DNA of 8,176 nucleotides from a virus (lineage: Duplodnaviria > Heunggongvirae > Uroviricota > Caudoviricetes). This document shows, piece by piece, positions 1 through 7,708 of this stretch. The position numbers were made by a program, and so were the translations under genes. Within the stretch, counting starts at the first letter, position 1. Each line of letters starts with the position of its first letter. The notes below the pieces were generated by a model that saw only the letters and a program-made list of their open reading frames with translations, was not told the origin of the DNA and did no database searches. The stretch is from IMG/VR virus record IMGVR_UViG_3300029184_000028; one strand, 5' to 3'.

Positions 1-145
1 CGGGCCGTCTACGGTTCCACAGGATTCAAAGGAGTGAATGCGACCAATAACTGACTTGGTAGCCCCCGCCGTAGCGGTATTTTCTGTTGTATTACAATTA
101 GTTAAATTACTCATATCGCTTCAATTGGCTCTAGTTAACTCTGGT

Positions 146-1141
146 TTATGGACGCATTATGGACATTCCTGACACCGGGTTAAGAGTCACAGCATCTTGT
201 AAGAAATCCGGTGCAAAGTGTGCGTAGGTCATAGTTTGCTGAATGTTAGAATGACCCAGGATGCGCTGCAATGTGATTATGTTACCTCCATTCATTATAA
301 AATGTGTGGCAAATGTATGCCTCAAAACATGTACTGCTTGTCCGTCAGGTAAATCGGGTTTTACTTCCCTGAGAGCGTTACGCACTTTGTAGTAACTGGC
401 ATTAAAAAGCCTGCCTGAATTTTTGGTCTTGATCCGTTTAATCAGGTCCTGCGAAACGGGAATTGTCCTGCGTTTTCCGTTTTTAGTTTTCATAAACGTA
501 ACCATCTGGTTAATGATGTGTTCAGCTTTTAAATTAGACACTTCACTCCAGCGTCCACCAGTAGAAAGGCAGACCAGAGTTGCATTTAATTCATCACCAT
601 CAAGCATGGATAACAGCCGCGTAATCTCTTCACTGGACAAAAAAGCCATTTCCGTAACAGCTTCACGTAACCGTTTAATCTCACGGAACGGGTTGTGGGA
701 GTGGTATTCACCGGCGTCAATTAACTTGGTGAACATCCCGCTCATTATTGCCAGATGTCGATTTACGCTGGCTGGTTTTAGACCATCGTTCATCATTACA
801 ACGCGATAATCAGTTATCGTTTTCTTTGTTAGCTGGTCAGCTCTGGACACTCCCATTTCTGCAAATTTGGCGATTATTGTCGTTAAACGCCCCCGTTCAA
901 TATCTCCACGCTCATGTGATTTTCCGTGATATATCCACCATCTACCTAACAACTCTGTAAGAGTTCGGCGGTCGGCTGGTTTCTCCAACCACTCTTTGTT
1001 GTGGTAGTTAACCAGTACATGACGTTCGAATGCCTGAGCTTCACCTTTAGTTTTAAATTTCCGCCTGATACGTTTTCCATCTGCACCCTGCGGTCTGACG
1101 TCCACTTCATAACGACCATCATCGAGCTTTTTAATAGACAT
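146..1141 (-). CDS. int: Tyrosine-type site-specific integrase (P2-like Int), 331 aa
   Basis: Full ORF with ATG at 1139-1141 preceded by GGAGG at spacing 5; stop TAA at 146-148. C-terminal tyrosine-recombinase signature is visible: TGGRWSE (box I Arg), HVLRHTFATHF (HxxR) and LGHSNIQQTMTYAHF (catalytic Tyr region). Position next to the repressor matches the P2 int-C arrangement. Confidence 0.92.
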   Translation of the reverse strand: MSIKKLDDGRYEVDVRPQGADGKRIRRKFKTKGEAQAFERHVLVNYHNKEWLEKPADRRTLTELLGRWWIYHGKSHERGDIERGRLTTIIAKFAEMGVSRADQLTKKTITDYRVVMMNDGLKPASVNRHLAIMSGMFTKLIDAGEYHSHNPFREIKRLREAVTEMAFLSSEEITRLLSMLDGDELNATLVCLSTGGRWSEVSNLKAEHIINQMVTFMKTKNGKRRTIPVSQDLIKRIKTKNSGRLFNASYYKVRNALREVKPDLPDGQAVHVLRHTFATHFIMNGGNIITLQRILGHSNIQQTMTYAHFAPDFLQDAVTLNPVSGMSIMRP

Positions 1142-1234: not shown

Positions 1235-1534
1235 TCAGCCAGTCTTCTGGTCTGAGTGGTGCAAGGTTGTTGAGTCTTGCCCAATGTGTGCGAGAGCCGG
1301 GGCTATTTGTCCAGCTGCTGGATCTGTTTCATCAAACATGAACCAGTCACGATACTTGCGAAAGCGTGGATGCTTAAACAGCTTCATACCTGCTTCCATA
1401 GGCATTTTTGATTTTCCTGATTCATATCCATGATATGTGTAGTAATTAATTCCAATTAATTCAGCAAGTTCCTTAGTTTTAAGGCGTTCGGATTCACGGA
1501 TGAGCTTTAGTTTCTCACTTTGTTTACTTGACAT
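1235..1534 (-). CDS. C: Immunity repressor, P2 C-like small HTH protein (~99 aa from ATG 1532-1534; ORF track uses TTG at 1552)
   Basis: Helix-turn-helix-like segment TKELAELIGINYYTYHGYESGKS near the N-terminus; size close to P2 C (~99 aa); divergent from the early operon and co-oriented with int. GGAG at 1547-1550 (minus strand) lies 12 nt upstream of ATG 1532-1534. C-terminal GQIAPALAH..GQKTG matches my recollection of P2 C, unverified. Confidence 0.7.
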   Translation of the reverse strand: MSSKQSEKLKLIRESERLKTKELAELIGINYYTYHGYESGKSKMPMEAGMKLFKHPRFRKYRDWFMFDETDPAAGQIAPALAHIGQDSTTLHHSDQKTG

Positions 1535-1552
1535 AATTTTGCTAATCTCCAA

Positions 1553-1627
1553 TTATATTGCTACTTGGCAATTTGTGATTCACTCAAAAAGGCTCTAGAT
1601 GGCTCCAGTTGGTGAATCGCAAATCTT
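1553..1627. promoter_or_regulatory. Early developmental switch region between repressor and cox (expected Pe/Pc promoters and operators)
   Basis: 75-bp intergenic region between divergent genes. Contains direct repeats GGCTCTAG (1591-1598) and GGCTCCAG (1601-1608), flanked by an inverted repeat ATTTGTGATTCAC (1571-1583) / GGTGAATCGCAAAT (1611-1624; 12 of 13 complementary). A TATAAT hexamer is present on the minus strand at 1552-1557. Exact promoter assignment is not resolved. Confidence 0.5.
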
Positions 1628-1999
1628 ATGGAGGATAGCAAAGTGACGACAAATGTAGAAATTTCTTGTCCAACTAGCGATGAGGCAAGTTTCGAAAACG
1701 AAGCCAAACGTAAAAGCATTCAGATTTCAGAGCGCCCATCTGATTTGCTGTCGAAAGAAGGGTTTGCTCTTTACATCGGTAAGACACCACGCGCGGTGGC
1801 TGAAATGGCTAAAGCAGGAAAGCTGCCAGCCTTCTACATGACAGACCCATTAAAACCAAGAGGGAAAGCTGAATTATGGGTAAATCGTCGTGAGTGGGAT
1901 AAGTATGCGGCACAACTGGTCGAAGAAGCTCCAACCGAATGGCATGACTGGAAAAATCGCATTAGTTACAGCAAATCAAGACATGGCCGTGCGGCTTAA
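1628..1999 (+). CDS. cox: Cox-like excisionase / early transcriptional regulator (start uncertain: ATG 1628, or GTG 1643 with better RBS)
   Basis: First gene of the rightward operon, opposite the repressor. Contains a putative DNA-binding segment EGFALYIGKTPRAVAEMAKAGKLPAFYMTDP that resembles my recollection of P2 Cox. GGAGG at 1631-1635 sits 7 nt before GTG 1643. Stop TAA at 1997-1999. Confidence 0.55.
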   Translation: MEDSKVTTNVEISCPTSDEASFENEAKRKSIQISERPSDLLSKEGFALYIGKTPRAVAEMAKAGKLPAFYMTDPLKPRGKAELWVNRREWDKYAAQLVEEAPTEWHDWKNRISYSKSRHGRAA

Positions 2000-2965: not shown

Positions 2966-3267
2966 TGTCCTGTTCTCATTCAGTTGTATTACTGAATAAC
3001 GCCTTAAAAATCGCCGTTATGAAAAATGGCGATTTGTCTCTTATTCAAATTTGCCTTGATAAAGAAAAACGCGAAATAACTGAGTCTGTTATCGCGATTT
3101 ATCAGAACGAATTAAATCTCCTGTCTGATGTGGTCAATTTACTTGTTAAACGCGCTGTATTCCACAAGCAAATTTCCTCAGTGGATGAACTGACAAAATT
3201 AACGACAGAAATTGCCAGCTATTGCGCTGATGAATTTAAAAAACTTAACGACAAAAGGAGCTGGTAA
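2965..3267 (+). CDS. Hypothetical small early protein (100 aa; P2 orf81 position)
   Basis: ATG 2965 preceded by GGGGAGG at 2951-2957. Stop TAA at 3265-3267 overlaps the next start (TAATG). Codon usage is more AT-rich than its neighbours. Confidence 0.6.
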   Translation: MSCSHSVVLLNNALKIAVMKNGDLSLIQICLDKEKREITESVIAIYQNELNLLSDVVNLLVKRAVFHKQISSVDELTKLTTEIASYCADEFKKLNDKRSW

Positions 3268-3488
3268 TGCCGGACAACGTAGATTTTATTCAGGAACAAC
3301 AGGCTGAATTACTGGAGCGCCAGATTAACGCGGCAAGGGTAAAGCATTGCGGTGTTTCTGCGCTGGTTTGCGAAGAGTGTGACGCGCCAATACCTGCTGC
3401 CCGTCGTGCGNNNNNNNNNNNNNNNNNTTGTGTTTCCTGCCAGTCAGTCTTTGAAGCAAAAAACAAACATTACCGGAGAACGGCATGA
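3267..3488 (+). CDS. TraR/DksA-family C4 zinc-finger protein (73 aa; interrupted by a 17-N run)
   Basis: Paired CxxC motifs (CEEC ... CVSC) with spacing typical of the TraR/DksA C4 zinc finger. ATG 3267 preceded by AGGAG at 3256-3260. Reading frame is continuous across the N-run at 3411-3427. Stop TGA at 3486-3488 overlaps the next ATG. Confidence 0.75.
   Translation: MPDNVDFIQEQQAELLERQINAARVKHCGVSALVCEECDAPIPAARRAXXXXXXCVSCQSVFEAKNKHYRRTA
3411..3427. other. Run of 17 ambiguous bases (N): assembly gap or masked bases
   Basis: Directly visible in the sequence; lies inside the zinc-finger gene between its two CxxC pairs. Confidence 1.
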
Positions 3489-3760: not shown

Positions 3761-6056
3761 AGCCTCCGGGCGTTTTGTCCCTCCGTCAGTATTTGCCGCA
3801 GGCACCGGTGAGACGTTTACCGGTGCTTATGCATGGAACGCGCCACGCGAGGCCGTCGGGCGCGAAAGACCCCTTACACGTGACGAGATGCGTCAGGTGC
3901 AAGGTGTTTTATCCACGATTAATCGCCTGCCTTACTTTTTGCGCTCGCTGTTTACTTCACGCTATGACTACATCCGGCGCAATAAAAGCCCGGTGCACGG
4001 GTTTTATTTCCTCACATCCACTTTTCAGCGCCGTTTATGGCCGCGTATTGAGCGCGTGAATCAGCGCCATGAAATGAATACCGACGCGTCGTTGCTGTTT
4101 CTGGCAGAGCGTGACCATTATGCGCGTCTGCCGGGGATGAATGACAAGGAGCTGAAAAAGTTTGCCGCCCGTATCTCATCGCAGCTTTTCATGATGTATG
4201 AGGAACTCTGCGATGCATGGGTTGATGCACATGGCGAGAAAGAATCGCTGTTTACAGATGAGGCGCAGGCGCATCTGTATGGTCATGTTGCTGGCGCTGC
4301 ACGTGCTTTCAATATTTCCCCTCTCTACTGGAAAAAATACCGTAAAGGACAGATGACCACGAGGCAGGCATATTCTGCCATTGCCCGTCTGTTTAACGAT
4401 GAGTGGTGGACTCATCAGCTTAAAGGCCAGCGTATGCGCTGGCATGAGGCGTTACTGATTGCTGTCGGGGAGGTCAATAAAGACCGTTCTCCTTATGCCA
4501 GTAAACACGCCATTCGTGATGTGCGTGCGCGCCGCCAGGCAAATCTGGAATTTCTTAAATCGTGTGACCTTGAAAACAGGGAAACCGGCGAGCGCATCGA
4601 CCTTATCAGTAAGGTGATGGGCAGTATTTCTAATCCTGAAATTCGCCGGATGGAGCTGATGAACACCATTGCCGGTATTGAGCGTTACGCCGCCGCAGAG
4701 GGTGATGTGGGGATGTTTATCACGCTGACCGCGCCGTCAAAGTATCACCCGACTCGTCAGGTCAGAAAAGGCGAAAGTAAAACCGTTAAGCTTAATCACG
4801 GCTGGAACGATGAGGCATTTAATCCAAAGGATGCGCAGCGTTATCTCTGCCGCATCTGGAGCCTGATGCGCACGGCATTCAAGGATAATGATTTACAGGT
4901 CTACGGTTTGCGTGTCGTCGAGCCACACCACGACGGAACGCCGCACTGGCATATGATGCTTTTTTGTAATCCACGCCAGCGTAACCAGATTATCGAAATC
5001 ATGCGTCGCTATGCGCTCAAAGAGGATGGCGACGAAAGAGGAGCCGCGCGAAACCGTTTTCAGGCAAAGCACCTTAACCGGGGCGGTGCTGCGGGATATA
5101 TCGCGAAATACATTTCAAAAAATATCGACGGCTATGCACTAGATGGTCAGCTCGATAACGATACCGGTAAGCCGCTTAAAGATACTGCCGCGGCTGTTAC
5201 CGCATGGGCGTCAACGTGGCGCATCCCGCAATTTAAAACGGTTGGACTGCCGACAATGGGGGCTTACCGTGAACTACGCAAATTGCCTCGCGGCGTCAGT
5301 ATTGCTGATGAGTTTGACGAACGCGTCGAGGCTGCTCGCGCTGCCGCAGACAGTGGTGATTTTGCGTTGTATATCAGCGCGCAGGGTGGGGCAAATGTCC
5401 CGCGCGATTGCCAGACTGTCAGGGTCGCCCGTAGCCCGTCGGATGACGTTAACGAGTACGAGGAAGAAGTCGAGAGAGTGGTCGGCATTTACGCGCCGCA
5501 TCTCGGCGCGCGTCATATTCATATCACCAGAACGACGGACTGGCGCATTGTTCCGAAAGTGCCGGTCGTTGAGCCTTTAACTTTAAAAAGCGGCATCGCC
5601 GCGCCTCGGAGTCCTGTCAATAACTGTGGAAAGCTCACCGGTGGTGATACTTCGTTACCGGCTCCCACACCTTCTGAGCACGCCGCAGCAGTGCTTAATC
5701 TGGTTGATGACGGTGTTATCGAATGGAATGACCCGGAGGTCGTGAGGGCGCTCAGGGGCGCATTAAAACACGGCCTGAGAACACCAAACCGTCAGCAAAG
5801 AAACGGAAGCCCGTTAAAACCGAATGAAATAGCGCCATCGGCCAGGCTGACCCGGTCGGAGCGTATGCAAATTACCCGTATCCGTGTTGACCTTGCTCAG
5901 AACGGCATCTGGCCTCAGCGATGGGAACTTGAGGCGCTGGCGCGTGGCGCGACCGTAAATTATGACGGGAAAAAATTCACGTATCCGGTCACTGATGAGT
6001 GGCCGGGATTCTCAACAGTAATGGAGTGGACATCATGGCAAAAATTCACGAGGTAA
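3750..6056 (+). CDS. A: Replication initiation endonuclease A (HUH-superfamily rolling-circle initiator, ~769 aa from ATG 3750; ORF track starts at TTG 3708)
   Basis: HUH-type metal-binding motif EPHHDGTPHWHMMLF and a paired-tyrosine active site AGYIAKYISKNIDG (Y-x3-Y), as in phiX174 gpA / P2 A nickases. Length is close to P2 A (761 aa) and the gene is last in the early operon. Stop TAA at 6054-6056. Confidence 0.92.
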   Translation: MAVKASGRFVPPSVFAAGTGETFTGAYAWNAPREAVGRERPLTRDEMRQVQGVLSTINRLPYFLRSLFTSRYDYIRRNKSPVHGFYFLTSTFQRRLWPRIERVNQRHEMNTDASLLFLAERDHYARLPGMNDKELKKFAARISSQLFMMYEELCDAWVDAHGEKESLFTDEAQAHLYGHVAGAARAFNISPLYWKKYRKGQMTTRQAYSAIARLFNDEWWTHQLKGQRMRWHEALLIAVGEVNKDRSPYASKHAIRDVRARRQANLEFLKSCDLENRETGERIDLISKVMGSISNPEIRRMELMNTIAGIERYAAAEGDVGMFITLTAPSKYHPTRQVRKGESKTVKLNHGWNDEAFNPKDAQRYLCRIWSLMRTAFKDNDLQVYGLRVVEPHHDGTPHWHMMLFCNPRQRNQIIEIMRRYALKEDGDERGAARNRFQAKHLNRGGAAGYIAKYISKNIDGYALDGQLDNDTGKPLKDTAAAVTAWASTWRIPQFKTVGLPTMGAYRELRKLPRGVSIADEFDERVEAARAAADSGDFALYISAQGGANVPRDCQTVRVARSPSDDVNEYEEEVERVVGIYAPHLGARHIHITRTTDWRIVPKVPVVEPLTLKSGIAAPRSPVNNCGKLTGGDTSLPAPTPSEHAAAVLNLVDDGVIEWNDPEVVRALRGALKHGLRTPNRQQRNGSPLKPNEIAPSARLTRSERMQITRIRVDLAQNGIWPQRWELEALARGATVNYDGKKFTYPVTDEWPGFSTVMEWTSWQKFTR
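5601..5620 (+). other. Putative origin of replication / A-protein nick site inside the A coding sequence
   Basis: Sequence GCGCCTCGGAGTCCTGTCAA matches my recollection of the P2 ori nick region, which is known to lie within gene A. Recalled, not checked against a database. Confidence 0.45.
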
Positions 6057-6487
6057 AGCTTCACGCAAAATATTTCGACCTTGTGCTGGAAGGAAAGAAA
6101 CGTGCAGAGTTTCGGAAAAATGACCGTAATTATGAGCGCGGGGACACGCTGATTTTGCATGAATGGGTGCAGGGTGTGTTTACGGGGCGAAAGGTTGAAG
6201 CCCGGATAACAGATGTTACTGACCTGTCAGACTGGCTGGAAGATTATGTCTTGCTAAGTATTGAGCTGCTTAATACAAGCGCATATGAGATTGTGAACTG
6301 GAAAGAACTTAGTGAGCGTGGTCTGGTATTCAGAATTAATCATGAAATTATGCATCAGCTCGGCCTTGCTGTTATGTATGAACCAGAGACGGGGATGTCT
6401 GGCGGGGCAATGGTTGCCACGGATGGAGCATGGAACTATTCAGATGAACAGATTGAGAGTGCAAAGCAAAACGGGTGGCTTGGATAA
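6035..6487 (+). CDS. DUF3850/ASCH-like protein with unassigned C-terminal extension (~150 aa)
   Basis: ATG 6035 preceded by GGAG at 6023-6026 (spacing 8); overlaps the end of A by 22 nt. N-terminal segment KLHAKYFDLVLEGKKRAEFRKNDRNYERGDTLILHEW resembles the DUF3850/ASCH fold signature. Stop TAA at 6485-6487. Confidence 0.6.
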   Translation: MAKIHEVKLHAKYFDLVLEGKKRAEFRKNDRNYERGDTLILHEWVQGVFTGRKVEARITDVTDLSDWLEDYVLLSIELLNTSAYEIVNWKELSERGLVFRINHEIMHQLGLAVMYEPETGMSGGAMVATDGAWNYSDEQIESAKQNGWLG

Positions 6488-6693: not shown

Positions 6694-6766
6694 AGAACGC
6701 CGCCAGTCGTGAAACTTGTTTTCAGGGCTGGCGGGGTTGAACAACGAGCGAAGTGAGGCGTTAGCA

Positions 6767-7708
6767 TTAAGTTAATTTTAATGAATGGTACTCTATCGAG
6801 CTGATTGTAGATGCGATATATTTACGATCATTTACAGAGAGTATTGCCGCTAGTAGACGACATACCAGAGCCTGCATTTGTAGCAATATATCGCTACCAT
6901 ATTGACAATCATTGATACTAGAGAAACCAAGCGGTTGCCCATTAAAAATGGCTTCATGAAAATTATCATTGCGTATAACTGAAACATTACATTCATCTGT
7001 TGCCCATGACGGGATTTTTACACCGTAATTTTCGCACATCCAATATACTCTATTTTGATGAGATGGTTTTTTCTCTTTAATGACTTTATCCCTTTCATCC
7101 CATGCTATAGCAAAACAGCAATCAAGAGCCATATAAAGATACTGGAATTTCTCAAAGGAAAGGTATAGTGGGTTATGTGATAGGAATAGGGAGTGTATCA
7201 CCGCAGCTATTCTTTTAATGGAGCGATCATCTTTTTGTTTGTCTTTTATATAGTTAAGTGCTAGCTCTATTACTTCTTTTTCAGAGCATCCAATGAGAAT
7301 AAAGTCAGTTAACTTAGTGGGCTTGATAGTGGTTGCATCAAGAAAACCAGCGTCAGTGGTTGTCAATCTTATACCCTTGAAAAAAGAGAGGCACCACACA
7401 ACAAAGTTGAGAGTTTCTAACGAGGATGTGTTTTTTAATTTTAGTGTGTGCGTTTTGGGCATGCCGAATACTCGGTAACTATAAGGCATTGTGCATGTGT
7501 CACCATTAAGGTTATATACCTTTCGATTCCCAGGGTATATCCAACCATTAACAACGTTTTTATCATTGTTAATACGTTCCACTTTCTCAATAAGACCGGG
7601 TAAAGTACGCAAAGAAAATTGTTCAGTCTCAATGTTAACTTCTACTGGATAGTATCCAAACTCCGAAATAATCTCATTTGGTTGCTGTTCATCAACTTCA
7701 CCTTGCAT
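6767..7708 (-). CDS. Hypothetical 313-aa protein; candidate anti-phage defence / abortive-infection cargo at the P2 variable locus
   Basis: Uninterrupted 942-nt ORF with ATG (7706-7708) preceded by GGAG at spacing 6. Antisense to the early operon and convergent with it. Markedly AT-rich relative to the A gene (by eye, roughly mid-30s % GC against low-to-mid 50s). No TM segment, Walker A or other motif I can assign. Lies in the interval between the replication genes and cos. Confidence 0.8.
   Translation of the reverse strand: MQGEVDEQQPNEIISEFGYYPVEVNIETEQFSLRTLPGLIEKVERINNDKNVVNGWIYPGNRKVYNLNGDTCTMPYSYRVFGMPKTHTLKLKNTSSLETLNFVVWCLSFFKGIRLTTTDAGFLDATTIKPTKLTDFILIGCSEKEVIELALNYIKDKQKDDRSIKRIAAVIHSLFLSHNPLYLSFEKFQYLYMALDCCFAIAWDERDKVIKEKKPSHQNRVYWMCENYGVKIPSWATDECNVSVIRNDNFHEAIFNGQPLGFSSINDCQYGSDILLQMQALVCRLLAAILSVNDRKYIASTISSIEYHSLKLT

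What the first reader, a model, noticed from the sequence alone, without database searches (positions are those of the whole stretch)
1553..1627. Symmetric repeat architecture in the repressor/cox switch region
A 13-bp inverted repeat (1571-1583 and 1611-1624) brackets two direct repeats GGCTCTAG/GGCTCCAG spaced 10 bp apart, with a TCTAGA palindrome at the centre. P2-family switches use direct-repeat operators for C and multiple Cox boxes. The direct-repeat spacing here differs from the 22-bp spacing I recall for P2, suggesting a distinct immunity specificity.
Basis: partly seen in the sequence, partly recalled or inferred. Interest (0 to 1): 0.5.

Follow-up and report, generated by a model that had tools for sequence, protein, structure and literature searches.

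The report
Cox operator and stem in P2-type switch
The repeats sit in the lysis/lysogeny switch of a common P2-like E. coli prophage: the two direct repeats are binding boxes for the Cox protein (not the immunity repressor's operator), and the inverted repeat around them is a base-paired stem that sister phages keep in place while changing its sequence.

Summary
There is a 13-bp inverted repeat, 12/13 complementary (1571-1583 / 1612-1624). It brackets GGCTCTAGAT and GGCTCCAGTT (1591-1610) in the 108-bp spacer between the C repressor gene and cox of a P2-like prophage inserted at pflA.

The interpretation needs correcting. The 10-bp-phased direct repeats are not C operator half-sites, so comparing them with P2's 22-bp O1-O2 spacing is not valid. 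They are Cox boxes:
- They lie at -52/-42 from the cox start, where P2's own boxes lie.
- They persist in heteroimmune sister phages that share the Cox DNA-binding domain but differ in C.
- They recur as three phased copies beside int in the attP arm (117-146).

C half-sites are more likely TTGCTAAT (1539-46) and TTGGCAAT (1565-72), flanking the Pe -10.

The inverted repeat is the most variable part of the spacer within the class, yet pairing is kept (G-C, G.U and A-U at one pair). Thirteen other classes carry a different-sequence stem at the same place (permutation p about 1e-4). It does not track C, Cox or Int specificity. I read it as an RNA stem-loop in the overlapping 5' leaders of the convergent Pe and Pc transcripts. 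Its function is untested.

This is an ordinary switch of a known kind with one modestly new feature.

The parts
117..146 (+). Three 10-bp-phased Cox boxes in the attP arm (CGCTTCAATT GGCTCTAGTT AACTCTGGTT). They abut the int stop codon and lie just before the Int arm-type repeats TATGGAC (147-165).
   Evidence: The exact 8-mer GGCTCTAG is shared with 1591-1598. Weight-matrix hits at 127, 137 and 117. P2's annotated Cox site at attP maps to window ~83-156 by offset from the int stop. The sequence is identical in phages D8, pro147, vB_YpM_115 and S164.
146..1141 (-). Integrase gene (331 aa).
   Evidence: Pfam Int_N and Phage_integrase; annotated as integrase in D8 and in E. coli 51489.
1235..1534 (-). 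C immunity repressor gene (99 aa, HTH).
   Evidence: HTH_19/HTH_3 hits; 51% identical to P2 C, with the conserved GQIAPALA tail; annotated GpC in phage D8.
1528..1556 (+). Early promoter Pe: -35 TTGACA (1528-1533, overlapping the C start codon), 17-bp spacer, -10 AATTAT (1551-1556). Predicted start ~1563.
   Evidence: Consensus scan, 10/12. Same position relative to the C ATG as P2's annotated Pe. TTGACAT plus a -10 at 17 bp is present in all sister classes. The start site is inferred, not mapped.
1539..1546 (+). Candidate C half-site O1 (TTGCTAAT), in the Pe spacer where P2 and WPhi have O1.
   Evidence: Invariant in 42 same-class sequences. Identical in L183, L184, L186 and L096/L178, which encode the same C recognition helix. 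Inference only.
1565..1572 (+). Candidate C half-site O2 (TTGGCAAT), 26 bp from O1, at about +3..+10 of Pe.
   Evidence: TTGGCAAT is at the same spacing in L183/L184. TTGAACAT (L096) and TTAAACAT (L186) are at +26. One variant in 42 sequences. Inference only. A rival pair, TTGCTA 1539/1558 (19 bp), is not conserved in these relatives.
1571..1583 (.). Left arm of the 13-bp stem (ATTTGTGATTCAC).
   Evidence: Variable at 5 of 13 positions within the class, with pairing mostly kept.
1591..1610 (+). Two Cox boxes (GGCTCTAGAT, GGCTCCAGTT), which form the Cox operator of the switch. A degenerate third unit, GGTGAATCGC (1611-1620), overlaps the right arm.
   Evidence: At -52/-42 from the cox start, against P2 boxes at -51/-41/-32. 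Conserved motif and phasing in 15 or more classes sharing the Cox wHTH domain. One change in 42 same-class sequences. Top weight-matrix hits.
1612..1624 (.). Right arm of the stem (GTGAATCGCAAAT).
1632..1640 (-). Candidate lysogenic promoter Pc: an extended -10, TGCTATCCT, on the minus strand, overlapping the cox ribosome-binding site. Predicted start ~1625, one base outside the right arm.
   Evidence: TGnTAT(C/T)CT sits at the same place in 17/17 classes or variants. The only variable base in the 9-mer apart from that C/T is the unconstrained n. A -35-like TTCAGA (TTCTAC in the window, 1655-1660) lies 17 bp upstream inside otherwise variable cox codons. Not mapped. Similar motifs in group-1 phages, whose P2 Pc lies elsewhere, weaken this assignment.
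1643..1999 (+). cox gene, probably starting at GTG 1643 (SD GGAGGA 1630-1635), giving 118 aa with a class-specific ~30-aa N-terminal extension.
   Evidence: Pfam Phage_Cox. Homologues start with ATG/GTG/TTG at the aligned position behind GAGGATAGCAAA. Public annotations use ATG 1628.

Best explanation
The 75-bp feature is the core of a P2-type lysis/lysogeny switch, in the lineage with 'group 2' long Cox proteins that integrates at pflA like phiD145. It holds two different kinds of element. (1) The two 10-bp-phased direct repeats, GGCTCTAGAT and GGCTCCAGTT, are Cox boxes. The winged-helix Cox protein is made from the rightward early promoter Pe. It oligomerises on these boxes to shut off the leftward lysogenic promoter Pc. 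The same boxes beside int at attP let Cox direct excision. They are not the operator of the C immunity repressor. That operator lies to the left, around the Pe -10; the best candidates are TTGCTAAT 1539-46 and TTGGCAAT 1565-72. (2) The 13-bp inverted repeat is not a protein-binding site. It is a stem whose base-pairing, not sequence, is under selection. It closes a ~28-nt loop containing the Cox boxes. It would form in RNA in the leader of the Pe/cox transcript (about +9 to +62). It would also sit at the very 5' end of the Pc/C transcript, provided Pc is the conserved extended -10 that overlaps the cox ribosome-binding site. Its likely role is post-transcriptional: a 5' stem-loop that stabilises the weakly transcribed repressor mRNA, and/or controls pairing between the two complementary 5' leaders. 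Shown here: the sequence features; the conservation and attP recurrence of the boxes; covariation of the stem; and the stem's independence from C, Cox and Int specificity. Inferred: actual Cox and C binding, promoter start sites, that the stem acts as RNA, and its role.
For: Cox boxes. Positions -52/-42 from the cox start match P2's boxes at -51/-41/-32 (consensus from PMC3936717). The Cox DNA-binding domain is nearly identical in the window, pro147, vB_YpM_115, L096 and L102-L105, while C, the operator region and the Cox N-terminus differ. All of them keep GCTCTAG-like units at 10-bp phasing. Three phased copies lie next to int, where P2 has its attP Cox site. The boxes are almost invariant in 42 same-class sequences. 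Binding sites that are direct repeats one helical turn apart, at both switch and att, are typical of such excision factors (PMC7498355).

Stem.
- 12/13 complementary, p about 0.004. Leader fold z = -2.65 on the plus strand and -2.48 on the minus strand.
- Within the class the arms hold 7 of the 11 variable spacer positions (Fisher p = 0.004), yet 93% of cells stay paired.
- Pair 1577-1618 is G-C, G.U or A-U, and pair 1576-1619 is U.G, C-G or U-A.
- Cognate left and right flanks of the boxes pair better than non-cognate ones across classes: p = 0.00025/0.0017 in the first 8 classes; p = 0.044/0.020 in 7 classes found afterwards; p = 0.00035/0.00005 in 13 classes without the window.
- L183, L184 and L186 have the same C recognition helix as the window but different arms. 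L102 and L104 have different C proteins but the same arms.

Pc. TGnTAT(C/T)CT is present in 17/17 classes or variants. In WPhi, the published 82-nt transcript overlap puts the Pc start 3 nt outside its own inverted repeat (PMC1904263).
Against: - No binding, footprint or start-site data exist for this class, so everything functional is inference.
- RNAalifold on an unguided alignment of 8 classes finds no consensus structure. The cross-class signal rests on my flank-pairing test.
- There is no consistent strand preference. Plus-strand G.U pairs are favoured in the window lineage, but minus-strand duplexes are on average as good or better in other classes. A DNA-level role therefore cannot be excluded.
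- The compensatory evidence amounts to one or two independent events (12/500 shuffles as good).
- pro147-class arms are weak, and a common variant there breaks a pair.
- If Pc is where I predict, the Cox boxes lie at about +6..+35, downstream of the start. In P2 they lie over the -10/-35.
- In group-1 (P2-like Cox) phages the inverted repeats in the same region look like inverted Cox boxes. Inverted repeats in P2-type switches are therefore not all of one kind.
Confidence: 0.6

Rival explanations
1. The two direct repeats are the half-sites of the C immunity repressor, with an unusual 10-bp spacing that defines a new immunity specificity.
For: P2-family C proteins do bind direct repeats, and spacing varies between classes: 22, 26 and 34 bp (PMC1904268). 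The repeats lie in the class-variable module between C and cox.
Against: The repeats start 28 bp downstream of the predicted Pe start, whereas all mapped C operators flank the -10 or -35 (PMC1904268). The same motif and phasing are kept in classes whose C recognition helices and Pe regions differ. The motif recurs at attP, where C has no known role. Position matches P2's Cox boxes to within a base.
Confidence: 0.04
2. The inverted-repeat arms are protein-binding sites. They could be auxiliary C sites, with an inverted copy near Pc giving autoregulation as P2's extra O-like copies might. Or they could be sites for Cox, Int or a host factor.
For: The arms resemble the candidate O1: TTTGCTAATC against TTTGTGATTC and TTTGCGATTC, 7-8/10 (read). 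P2 has O-like copies GTTTAGTG and an inverted TTTAGTGC beyond O2, and the P2 C footprint extends past O2 (PMC1904263). In L096 the left arm is one of two 9-bp direct repeats 21 bp apart. In group-1 phages the inverted repeats look like inverted Cox boxes.
Against: The arms are the most variable spacer positions although C, Cox and Int are invariant within the class. L183, L184, L186 and L096 have the same C recognition residues but different arms. L102 and L104 have different C proteins but the same arms. The arms do not resemble the Cox-box matrix. Arm sequences are unrelated across 13 or more classes that share Cox and, in E. coli, Int, so a conserved protein cannot read them.
Confidence: 0.12
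3. The stem acts at the DNA level, as a cruciform or as a hairpin in single-stranded replication intermediates, rather than in RNA.
For: Complementarity is about equally significant on both strands across classes. P2 replicates by a rolling-circle mode that exposes single strands (general knowledge).
Against: A 28-nt loop makes cruciform extrusion very unfavourable. The G-C / G.U / A-U series and the U.G / C-G / U-A series in the window lineage are RNA-type intermediates on the plus strand. Both arms lie inside the stretch transcribed from Pe.
Confidence: 0.07
4. The inverted repeat has no function and is a chance or historical palindrome in an AT-rich spacer.
For: By my own estimate, about 0.2-0.4 repeats of this quality are expected somewhere in 8 kb. 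The arms are the least conserved part of the spacer. pro147-class has only a weak equivalent.
Against: p about 0.004 for the spacer itself. The flank pairing was replicated in independently retrieved classes. Pair-preserving substitutions are seen.
Confidence: 0.12

Closest known systems
Bacteriophage P2 developmental switch (C, Cox, convergent promoters Pe/Pc; GenBank AF063097)
   Same: Same gene order: int, C (leftward), cox (rightward), orf78, B. The spacer is ~110 bp. The Pe -35 overlaps the C start codon. Cox boxes are ~10 bp apart at about -50 to -30 from cox, and there is a second Cox site between the attP core and the Int P' arm.
   Different: C is only 51% identical. The operator sequence and probably the spacing differ: 26 bp candidate against 22 bp. 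The Cox box sequence is GGCTCTAGWT-like rather than TTAAA(G/C)NC(A/C). Cox has a 30-aa N-terminal extension. Only 2-3 recognisable boxes against at least 6. P2's 8-bp inverted repeat lies before the boxes and its right arm is itself box-like. Pc probably lies closer to cox.
Bacteriophage WPhi switch (NC_005056)
   Same: A 9-11-bp inverted repeat (CCAGTCCCT / AGGGACTGG) brackets CTAGA-containing direct repeats (CCTAGAAAGG / CCTAGAAGGG) between Pe and Pc. By the published 82-nt overlap, the Pc start falls ~3 nt outside the right arm (PMC1904263). This is the same architecture as the window.
   Different: Group-1 Cox, a different att site, a 152-bp spacer, C half-sites TATTGGTGAC 34 bp apart, and direct repeats 20 bp rather than 10 bp apart.
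phiD145/phiD160 group of P2-like coliphages (integration at the MG1655 950,293 site; 'group 2' larger Cox proteins)
   Same: The prophage sits at pflA, which is that map position, and has the larger Cox type (PMC3448106 Table 1 and Cox/Apl section).
   Different: I could not read the primary papers (Karlsson 2006, Mandali 2010). I therefore cannot say which of immunity classes I-X this is, or whether its Cox sites were already mapped.
Apl of coliphage 186 and other excision directionality factors (lambda Xis)
   Same: A small DNA-binding protein acts at both the switch and att through direct repeats one helical turn apart (PMC7498355).
   Different: Apl is an HTH protein of another subgroup. 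The 186 switch also has CII and a large CI repressor.
5'-terminal stem-loops that stabilise bacterial mRNAs (e.g. the ompA leader; general knowledge)
   Same: A stable stem within a few nucleotides of the predicted 5' end of the Pc transcript.
   Different: A very large (28-nt) loop. The same sequence is also an internal leader hairpin of the antisense Pe transcript. No decay data exist.

Membership tests
P2-type C/Cox lysis-lysogeny switch | Divergent genes for a ~100-aa HTH C repressor and a Cox protein, separated by ~100-150 bp, next to int | tested here: met
   C is 99 aa with an HTH; Phage_Cox E=5.5e-30; 108-bp spacer; int is adjacent.
P2-type C/Cox lysis-lysogeny switch | Face-to-face promoters Pe and Pc with overlapping transcripts | tested here: inconclusive
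   Pe matches the consensus at the P2 position. Pc is only predicted, from a conserved extended -10. No start sites have been mapped.
P2-type C/Cox lysis-lysogeny switch | C binds two direct-repeat half-sites flanking the Pe -10 or -35 | tested here: inconclusive
   The candidates TTGCTAAT and TTGGCAAT, 26 bp apart, are conserved among relatives with the same recognition helix. Binding cannot be tested with these tools.
C-repressor operator half-sites (as a reading of the repeats at 1591-1608) | Half-sites co-vary with C specificity and flank the Pe core promoter | tested here: not met
   The repeats are kept across classes with different C proteins, lie 28-45 bp downstream of the predicted Pe start, and recur at attP.
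Cox boxes (Cox/excision-factor operator) | Several direct repeats about one helical turn apart between Pe and cox | tested here: met
   Units at 1591 and 1601 (plus a degenerate one at 1611) have 10-bp phasing and sit at the same offsets from cox as P2's boxes.
Cox boxes (Cox/excision-factor operator) | The same motif is present at attP between the core and the Int arm sites | tested here: met
   117-146 holds three phased units, one of them an exact 8-mer match, adjacent to the int stop and the TATGGAC repeats.
Cox boxes (Cox/excision-factor operator) | The motif follows the Cox DNA-binding domain, not C | tested here: met
   More than 15 classes with a near-identical Cox wHTH keep the GCTCTAG-like motif. 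L102 and L104, whose Cox is more diverged, have diverged boxes.
Cox boxes (Cox/excision-factor operator) | Match to the P2 consensus TTAAA(G/C)NC(A/C) | tested here: not met
   The sequence is unrelated, as expected for a Cox of another subgroup (PMC3448106: only six residues are conserved between groups 1 and 2).
Cox boxes (Cox/excision-factor operator) | Protection by purified Cox over at least 70 bp | not testable with these tools
   Needs EMSA or DNase I footprinting.
Intrinsic terminator (as a reading of the inverted repeat) | A G+C-rich stem with a short loop followed by a T-run | tested here: not met
   The loop is 28 nt and there is no T-run on either strand after the arms.
Any curated RNA family (Rfam 15) | Covariance-model match | tested here: not met
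   The only hit was a chance miRNA match at E=4.9.

The most novel reading that the evidence does not exclude
P2-like phages of the long-Cox (phiD145-type) lineage, and possibly WPhi and P2 too, carry a so far undescribed structured RNA element in their switch. A stem-loop encoded between the convergent promoters encloses the Cox operator. It forms both at the 5' terminus of the repressor (Pc) mRNA and in the cox leader. It would add a post-transcriptional layer (mRNA stabilisation or antisense kissing between the two leaders) to a switch so far explained by two DNA-binding repressors and transcriptional interference. Linked to this, Pc in this lineage would be an extended -10 promoter superimposed on the cox ribosome-binding site.
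Probability: 0.35. Interest if true: 0.5.

Novelty: new member of a known kind. Interest (0 to 1): 0.33.

Why it matters
This switch class sits in 143 of 5,426 complete E. coli genomes and in several sequenced Escherichia and Yersinia phages. Getting its parts right matters for three uses: predicting superinfection immunity between P2-like prophages, engineering these phages or their integrases, and interpreting P4-like satellite interactions.

The practical correction is that the conspicuous direct repeats mark Cox (excision/anti-repressor) specificity, which many heteroimmune phages share. They do not mark immunity class, which is set further left at Pe.

The conserved stem would add an RNA-level component to a textbook convergent-promoter switch. 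That is testable with a handful of reporter constructs, but only if the stem proves functional.

Tried and rejected
- Promoter scan for Pc. The only good minus-strand hit (ATCACA-16-TATAAT, 1579..1552) would start inside the conserved C ribosome-binding region and is absent from sister classes, so I rejected it. TTGCGA-17-TCTAGA (1622..1594) and its equivalents have -10 elements lacking A2/T6, so I judged them weak.
- TTGCTA x2 at 19 bp, and ACTTGACA/ACTTGGCA at 37 bp, as C half-sites. The first pair is polymorphic within the class and absent in L183, L186 and L096, which share the C helix. The second pair partly overlaps the preferred candidate.
- CRP, IHF, LexA, Fur, PurR or TrpR reading of the arms, by eye only: no convincing match.
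- RNAalifold on a MAFFT alignment of 8 classes gave no consensus structure, because the arms are not in register.
- Rfam search: nothing.
- Best-inverted-repeat survey of 38 non-redundant P2-type spacers. There is enrichment (11 at p<0.05), but positions and likely natures are heterogeneous (operators, inverted Cox boxes), so this does not show a universal hairpin.
- Strand-asymmetry test for which RNA matters: inconclusive.
- Papers that would name the immunity class or map phiD145 Cox sites (PMC1482927, PMC113030) are not held.
- The metagenome pattern scan added only 8 sequences.
- PADLOC and Pfam on the 313-aa ORF: no hit.

Full report
**What the window is.** The 8.2-kb window is the left end of an integrated P2-like (Peduovirus) prophage.
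- The gene order is int (146-1141, minus strand), C repressor (1235-1534, minus strand), cox, an orf78-like gene, B, small ORFs and the replication gene A.
- The 1-kb int-C-cox-B stretch is 98% identical to phages D8, 12W, 11W, P24E6b, P24A7b, pro483 and vB_YpM_46.
- The 181-bp switch region occurs in 143 of 5,426 complete E. coli genomes, always on the chromosome and in single copy.
- Window bases 1-42 differ from the free phage genomes and encode the start of host PflA. The prophage therefore sits at pflA, the map position reported for phiD145/phiD160 (PMC3448106).

**Checking the observation.**
- The arms are 1571-1583 and 1612-1624, not 1611.
- They are 12/13 complementary, and the odd pair, T1576/G1619, is a U.G wobble on the plus strand.
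- GGCTCTAG and GGCTCCAG are 10 bp apart.
- Only 11 of 3000 dinucleotide-preserving shuffles of the 108-bp spacer reach a repeat this good.

**Layout by comparison with P2.** P2's GenBank record annotates Pe, O1, O2, Pc and the Cox site at attP.
- In both phages the Pe -35 TTGACA overlaps the C start codon and a -10 follows after 17 bp. In the window this is AATTAT at 1551-1556.
- P2's three best Cox boxes lie at -51, -41 and -32 from the cox ATG (consensus TTAAA(G/C)NC(A/C), PMC3936717).
- cox here most likely starts at GTG 1643. It follows the SD GGAGGA, and sister phages have ATG, GTG or TTG at the aligned position.
- On that basis the window's repeats lie at -52 and -42.

**The direct repeats are Cox boxes.**
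- pro147 and vB_YpM_115 share with the window the int gene, the attP arm, the C-terminal half of C and the whole Cox winged-helix domain.
- They differ from it in the N-terminal (DNA-binding) half of C, the Pe region and the first ~30 Cox residues.
- Despite this they keep 10-bp-phased GCTCTAG-like units at the same place: GGCTTCAAAT AGCTCTGGTT in pro147, and GACTCTAAAT CGCTCTAGAT in vB_YpM_115.
- The same holds in more than a dozen further classes from Scandinavium, Rahnella, Pectobacterium and viral metagenomes that carry this Cox domain.
- The attP arm, identical in all the E. coli phages, carries CGCTTCAATT GGCTCTAGTT AACTCTGGTT (117-146). This lies between the int stop and the Int arm-type repeats, where P2 has its Cox site.
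- A weight matrix built only from other classes' boxes ranks 1591, 127 and 1601 among its top four hits in the window. There are 4 hits at or above threshold against 0.4 expected.
- Within the class the boxes show one substitution in 42 sequences.
- A motif that follows Cox, ignores C and recurs at attP is a Cox operator, not an immunity operator. The comparison with P2's 22-bp O1-O2 spacing therefore does not apply.

**Where C probably binds.** Mapped C operators flank the Pe -10 or -35 (PMC1904268, PMC2995052).
- Four switch variants encode the same C recognition helix (INYYTYHGYESGK) as the window: L183, L184, L186 and L096/L178.
- They share TTGCTAAT in the Pe spacer (window 1539-1546).
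- Twenty-six base pairs downstream they have TTGGCAAT (window 1565-1572, L183, L184), TTGAACAT (L096) or TTAAACAT (L186).
- I give these as the best candidates for O1 and O2. This is inference only.

**The inverted repeat is a stem selected for pairing.**
- Within the class (42 sequences) the arms hold 7 of the 11 variable spacer positions (Fisher p = 0.004), while C, Cox and the boxes are invariant.
- The changes mostly keep pairing on the plus strand. T1576C makes the stem perfect. A1582G, C1581T and C1618T give G.U or U.G. G1619A gives U-A.
- L183, L184 and L186 have the same 108-bp layout and the same C helix but different arms (ATGCGCAATTCAC/GTGAATTGCAAAT and ATTGGCAATTCAC/GTGAAATGCAAAT). 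Pair 1577-1618 is A-U in them, G-C in the window and G.U in L007.
- On the eight-row alignment 93% of cells pair and two pairs change on both sides. Twelve of 500 shuffles do as well, and slid registers drop to 23-43% paired.

**The stem across classes.** I took fixed flanks left and right of the box pair and asked whether cognate flanks form better duplexes than non-cognate ones.
- They do in the first eight classes (permutation p = 0.00025 on the plus strand, 0.0017 on the minus strand).
- They do in seven classes retrieved afterwards (p = 0.044 and 0.020).
- They do in 13 classes excluding the window (p = 0.00035 and 0.00005).
- Arm sequences are unrelated between classes, for example TGTGTCTTT/AAAGACATA, CGCTAATT/AATTGGCG, CCG.ATCAC/GTGAT.CGG and CCCATTACAA/TTGTATGGG.

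**Proteins that cannot be reading the arms.**
- The arms do not follow C. Phages with the same C helix have different arms, and L102 and L104 have different C proteins but the same arms.
- Cox is the same in all these classes.
- Int is the same in the E. coli classes.
- What is conserved is pairing.

**RNA or DNA, and which transcript.**
- Both arms lie downstream of the predicted Pe start (~1563). The Pe/cox leader would therefore carry the hairpin (MFE -24 kcal/mol, z = -2.65), ending 5 nt before the SD.
- On the minus strand, TGnTAT(C/T)CT overlaps the cox ribosome-binding site in all 17 classes or variants examined. This is the pattern of an extended -10 promoter, and the only variable base in it apart from that C/T is the n.
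- A -35-like TTCAGA sits 17 bp upstream, inside otherwise variable cox codons.
- If this is Pc, its transcript starts near 1625 and the stem begins at +2. That would be a 5'-terminal stem-loop on the repressor mRNA (fold z = -2.48).
- In WPhi, the published 82-nt overlap puts the Pc start 3 nt outside that phage's own inverted repeat, which likewise brackets CTAGA repeats (PMC1904263).
- Caveats: Pc is unmapped here. Related TGnTAnnnT motifs occur in group-1 phages although P2's Pc lies elsewhere. Strand preference is inconsistent across classes.
- I favour an RNA role (stabilising 5' structure, and/or control of pairing between the complementary leaders). I hold this at roughly 0.4-0.5. The Cox-box assignment I hold at about 0.85.

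**Comparison and novelty.** This is an ordinary member of the P2-type switch family in the long-Cox, pflA-integrating lineage.
- Ten or so immunity classes of such coliphages are already described (PMC2995052, PMC3448106). I could not read the primary papers to say which class this is.
- In what I could read, two things were not described: the position-conserved, sequence-variable stem around the Cox operator, and the conserved extended -10 over the cox ribosome-binding site.
- These are modest additions to a well-understood system and need experiments.

Noticed in passing
window 1-114: This is the prophage/host junction. Bases 1-42 differ from the free phage genomes and encode host PflA (..SVIGRIHSFESCGTVDGP). 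Phage DNA from 43 onward replaces the native pflA start and upstream region, and an in-frame ATG at 112-114 adds ~20 codons. RefSeq annotates pflA with this longer start in a lysogen. The attP-arm Cox boxes (117-146) then lie immediately upstream of the rebuilt pflA.
   Followed up: partly
window 1628-1645: Public annotations (phage D8, E. coli 51489) start cox at ATG 1628, which has no SD. GTG 1643 has GGAGGA 8 nt upstream, and homologues in other classes start with ATG, GTG or TTG at that aligned position. The annotated protein is probably 5 residues too long.
   Followed up: partly
window 1632-1660 (minus strand) and 16 related loci: TGnTAT(C/T)CT overlaps the cox ribosome-binding site in every long-Cox class examined. 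An island TC(N)GAAAT at cox codons 5-7 is conserved inside an otherwise variable N-terminal extension (-35-like TTCAGA on the minus strand). Together they look like a promoter superimposed on the cox translation start.
   Followed up: partly
window 1503-1512: AGCTTTAGTT inside the C coding region scores as a Cox box (5th best in the window). It encodes the conserved KLKL residues of C, so it may be coincidental, or it may be an extra box near Pe.
   Followed up: no
window 3412-3428: A run of 17 N (masked bases) lies inside the small TraR/DksA-type zinc-finger ORF (3267-3488).
   Followed up: no
window 6767-7708 (minus strand): A 313-aa ORF in a lower-GC stretch (0.37-0.41, against ~0.53 in gene A) lies downstream of gene A, where P2 carries its variable tin/old cargo. 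It has no Pfam or PADLOC match and may be an uncharacterised accessory or defence gene.
   Followed up: partly
window 6035-6487: An ORF with DUF3850/ASCH plus DUF7415 domains lies immediately after gene A.
   Followed up: no
window 6696-6738: A 19-nt inverted repeat (84% complementary, 5-nt loop) lies between convergent ORFs. It is possibly a bidirectional terminator.
   Followed up: no
L006 (phage S164), Pe region: Relative to pro147, S164 lacks 6 bp (TATCTC) in the Pe spacer. This shortens the spacer to 11 bp and removes part of the O1-position sequence. It could be a promoter or operator mutant, or an assembly error.
   Followed up: no
L096/L178 (Scandinavium prophage), spacer: A 9-mer ATGTGTCTT occurs twice as a direct repeat 21 bp apart just after the Pe -10, and once inverted (AAAGACATA) beyond the Cox boxes. 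The left stem arm there therefore doubles as a direct repeat. This is not explained by a pure RNA-stem model.
   Followed up: no
L117, L125, L127, L129 (group-1 Cox prophages): Their significant inverted repeats (e.g. TCTAATGTTC/GCACATTAGA) share a TCTAAT/ATTAGA core across classes. The right arm overlaps the first P2-type Cox box, so they look like inverted Cox boxes rather than sequence-free stems.
   Followed up: no
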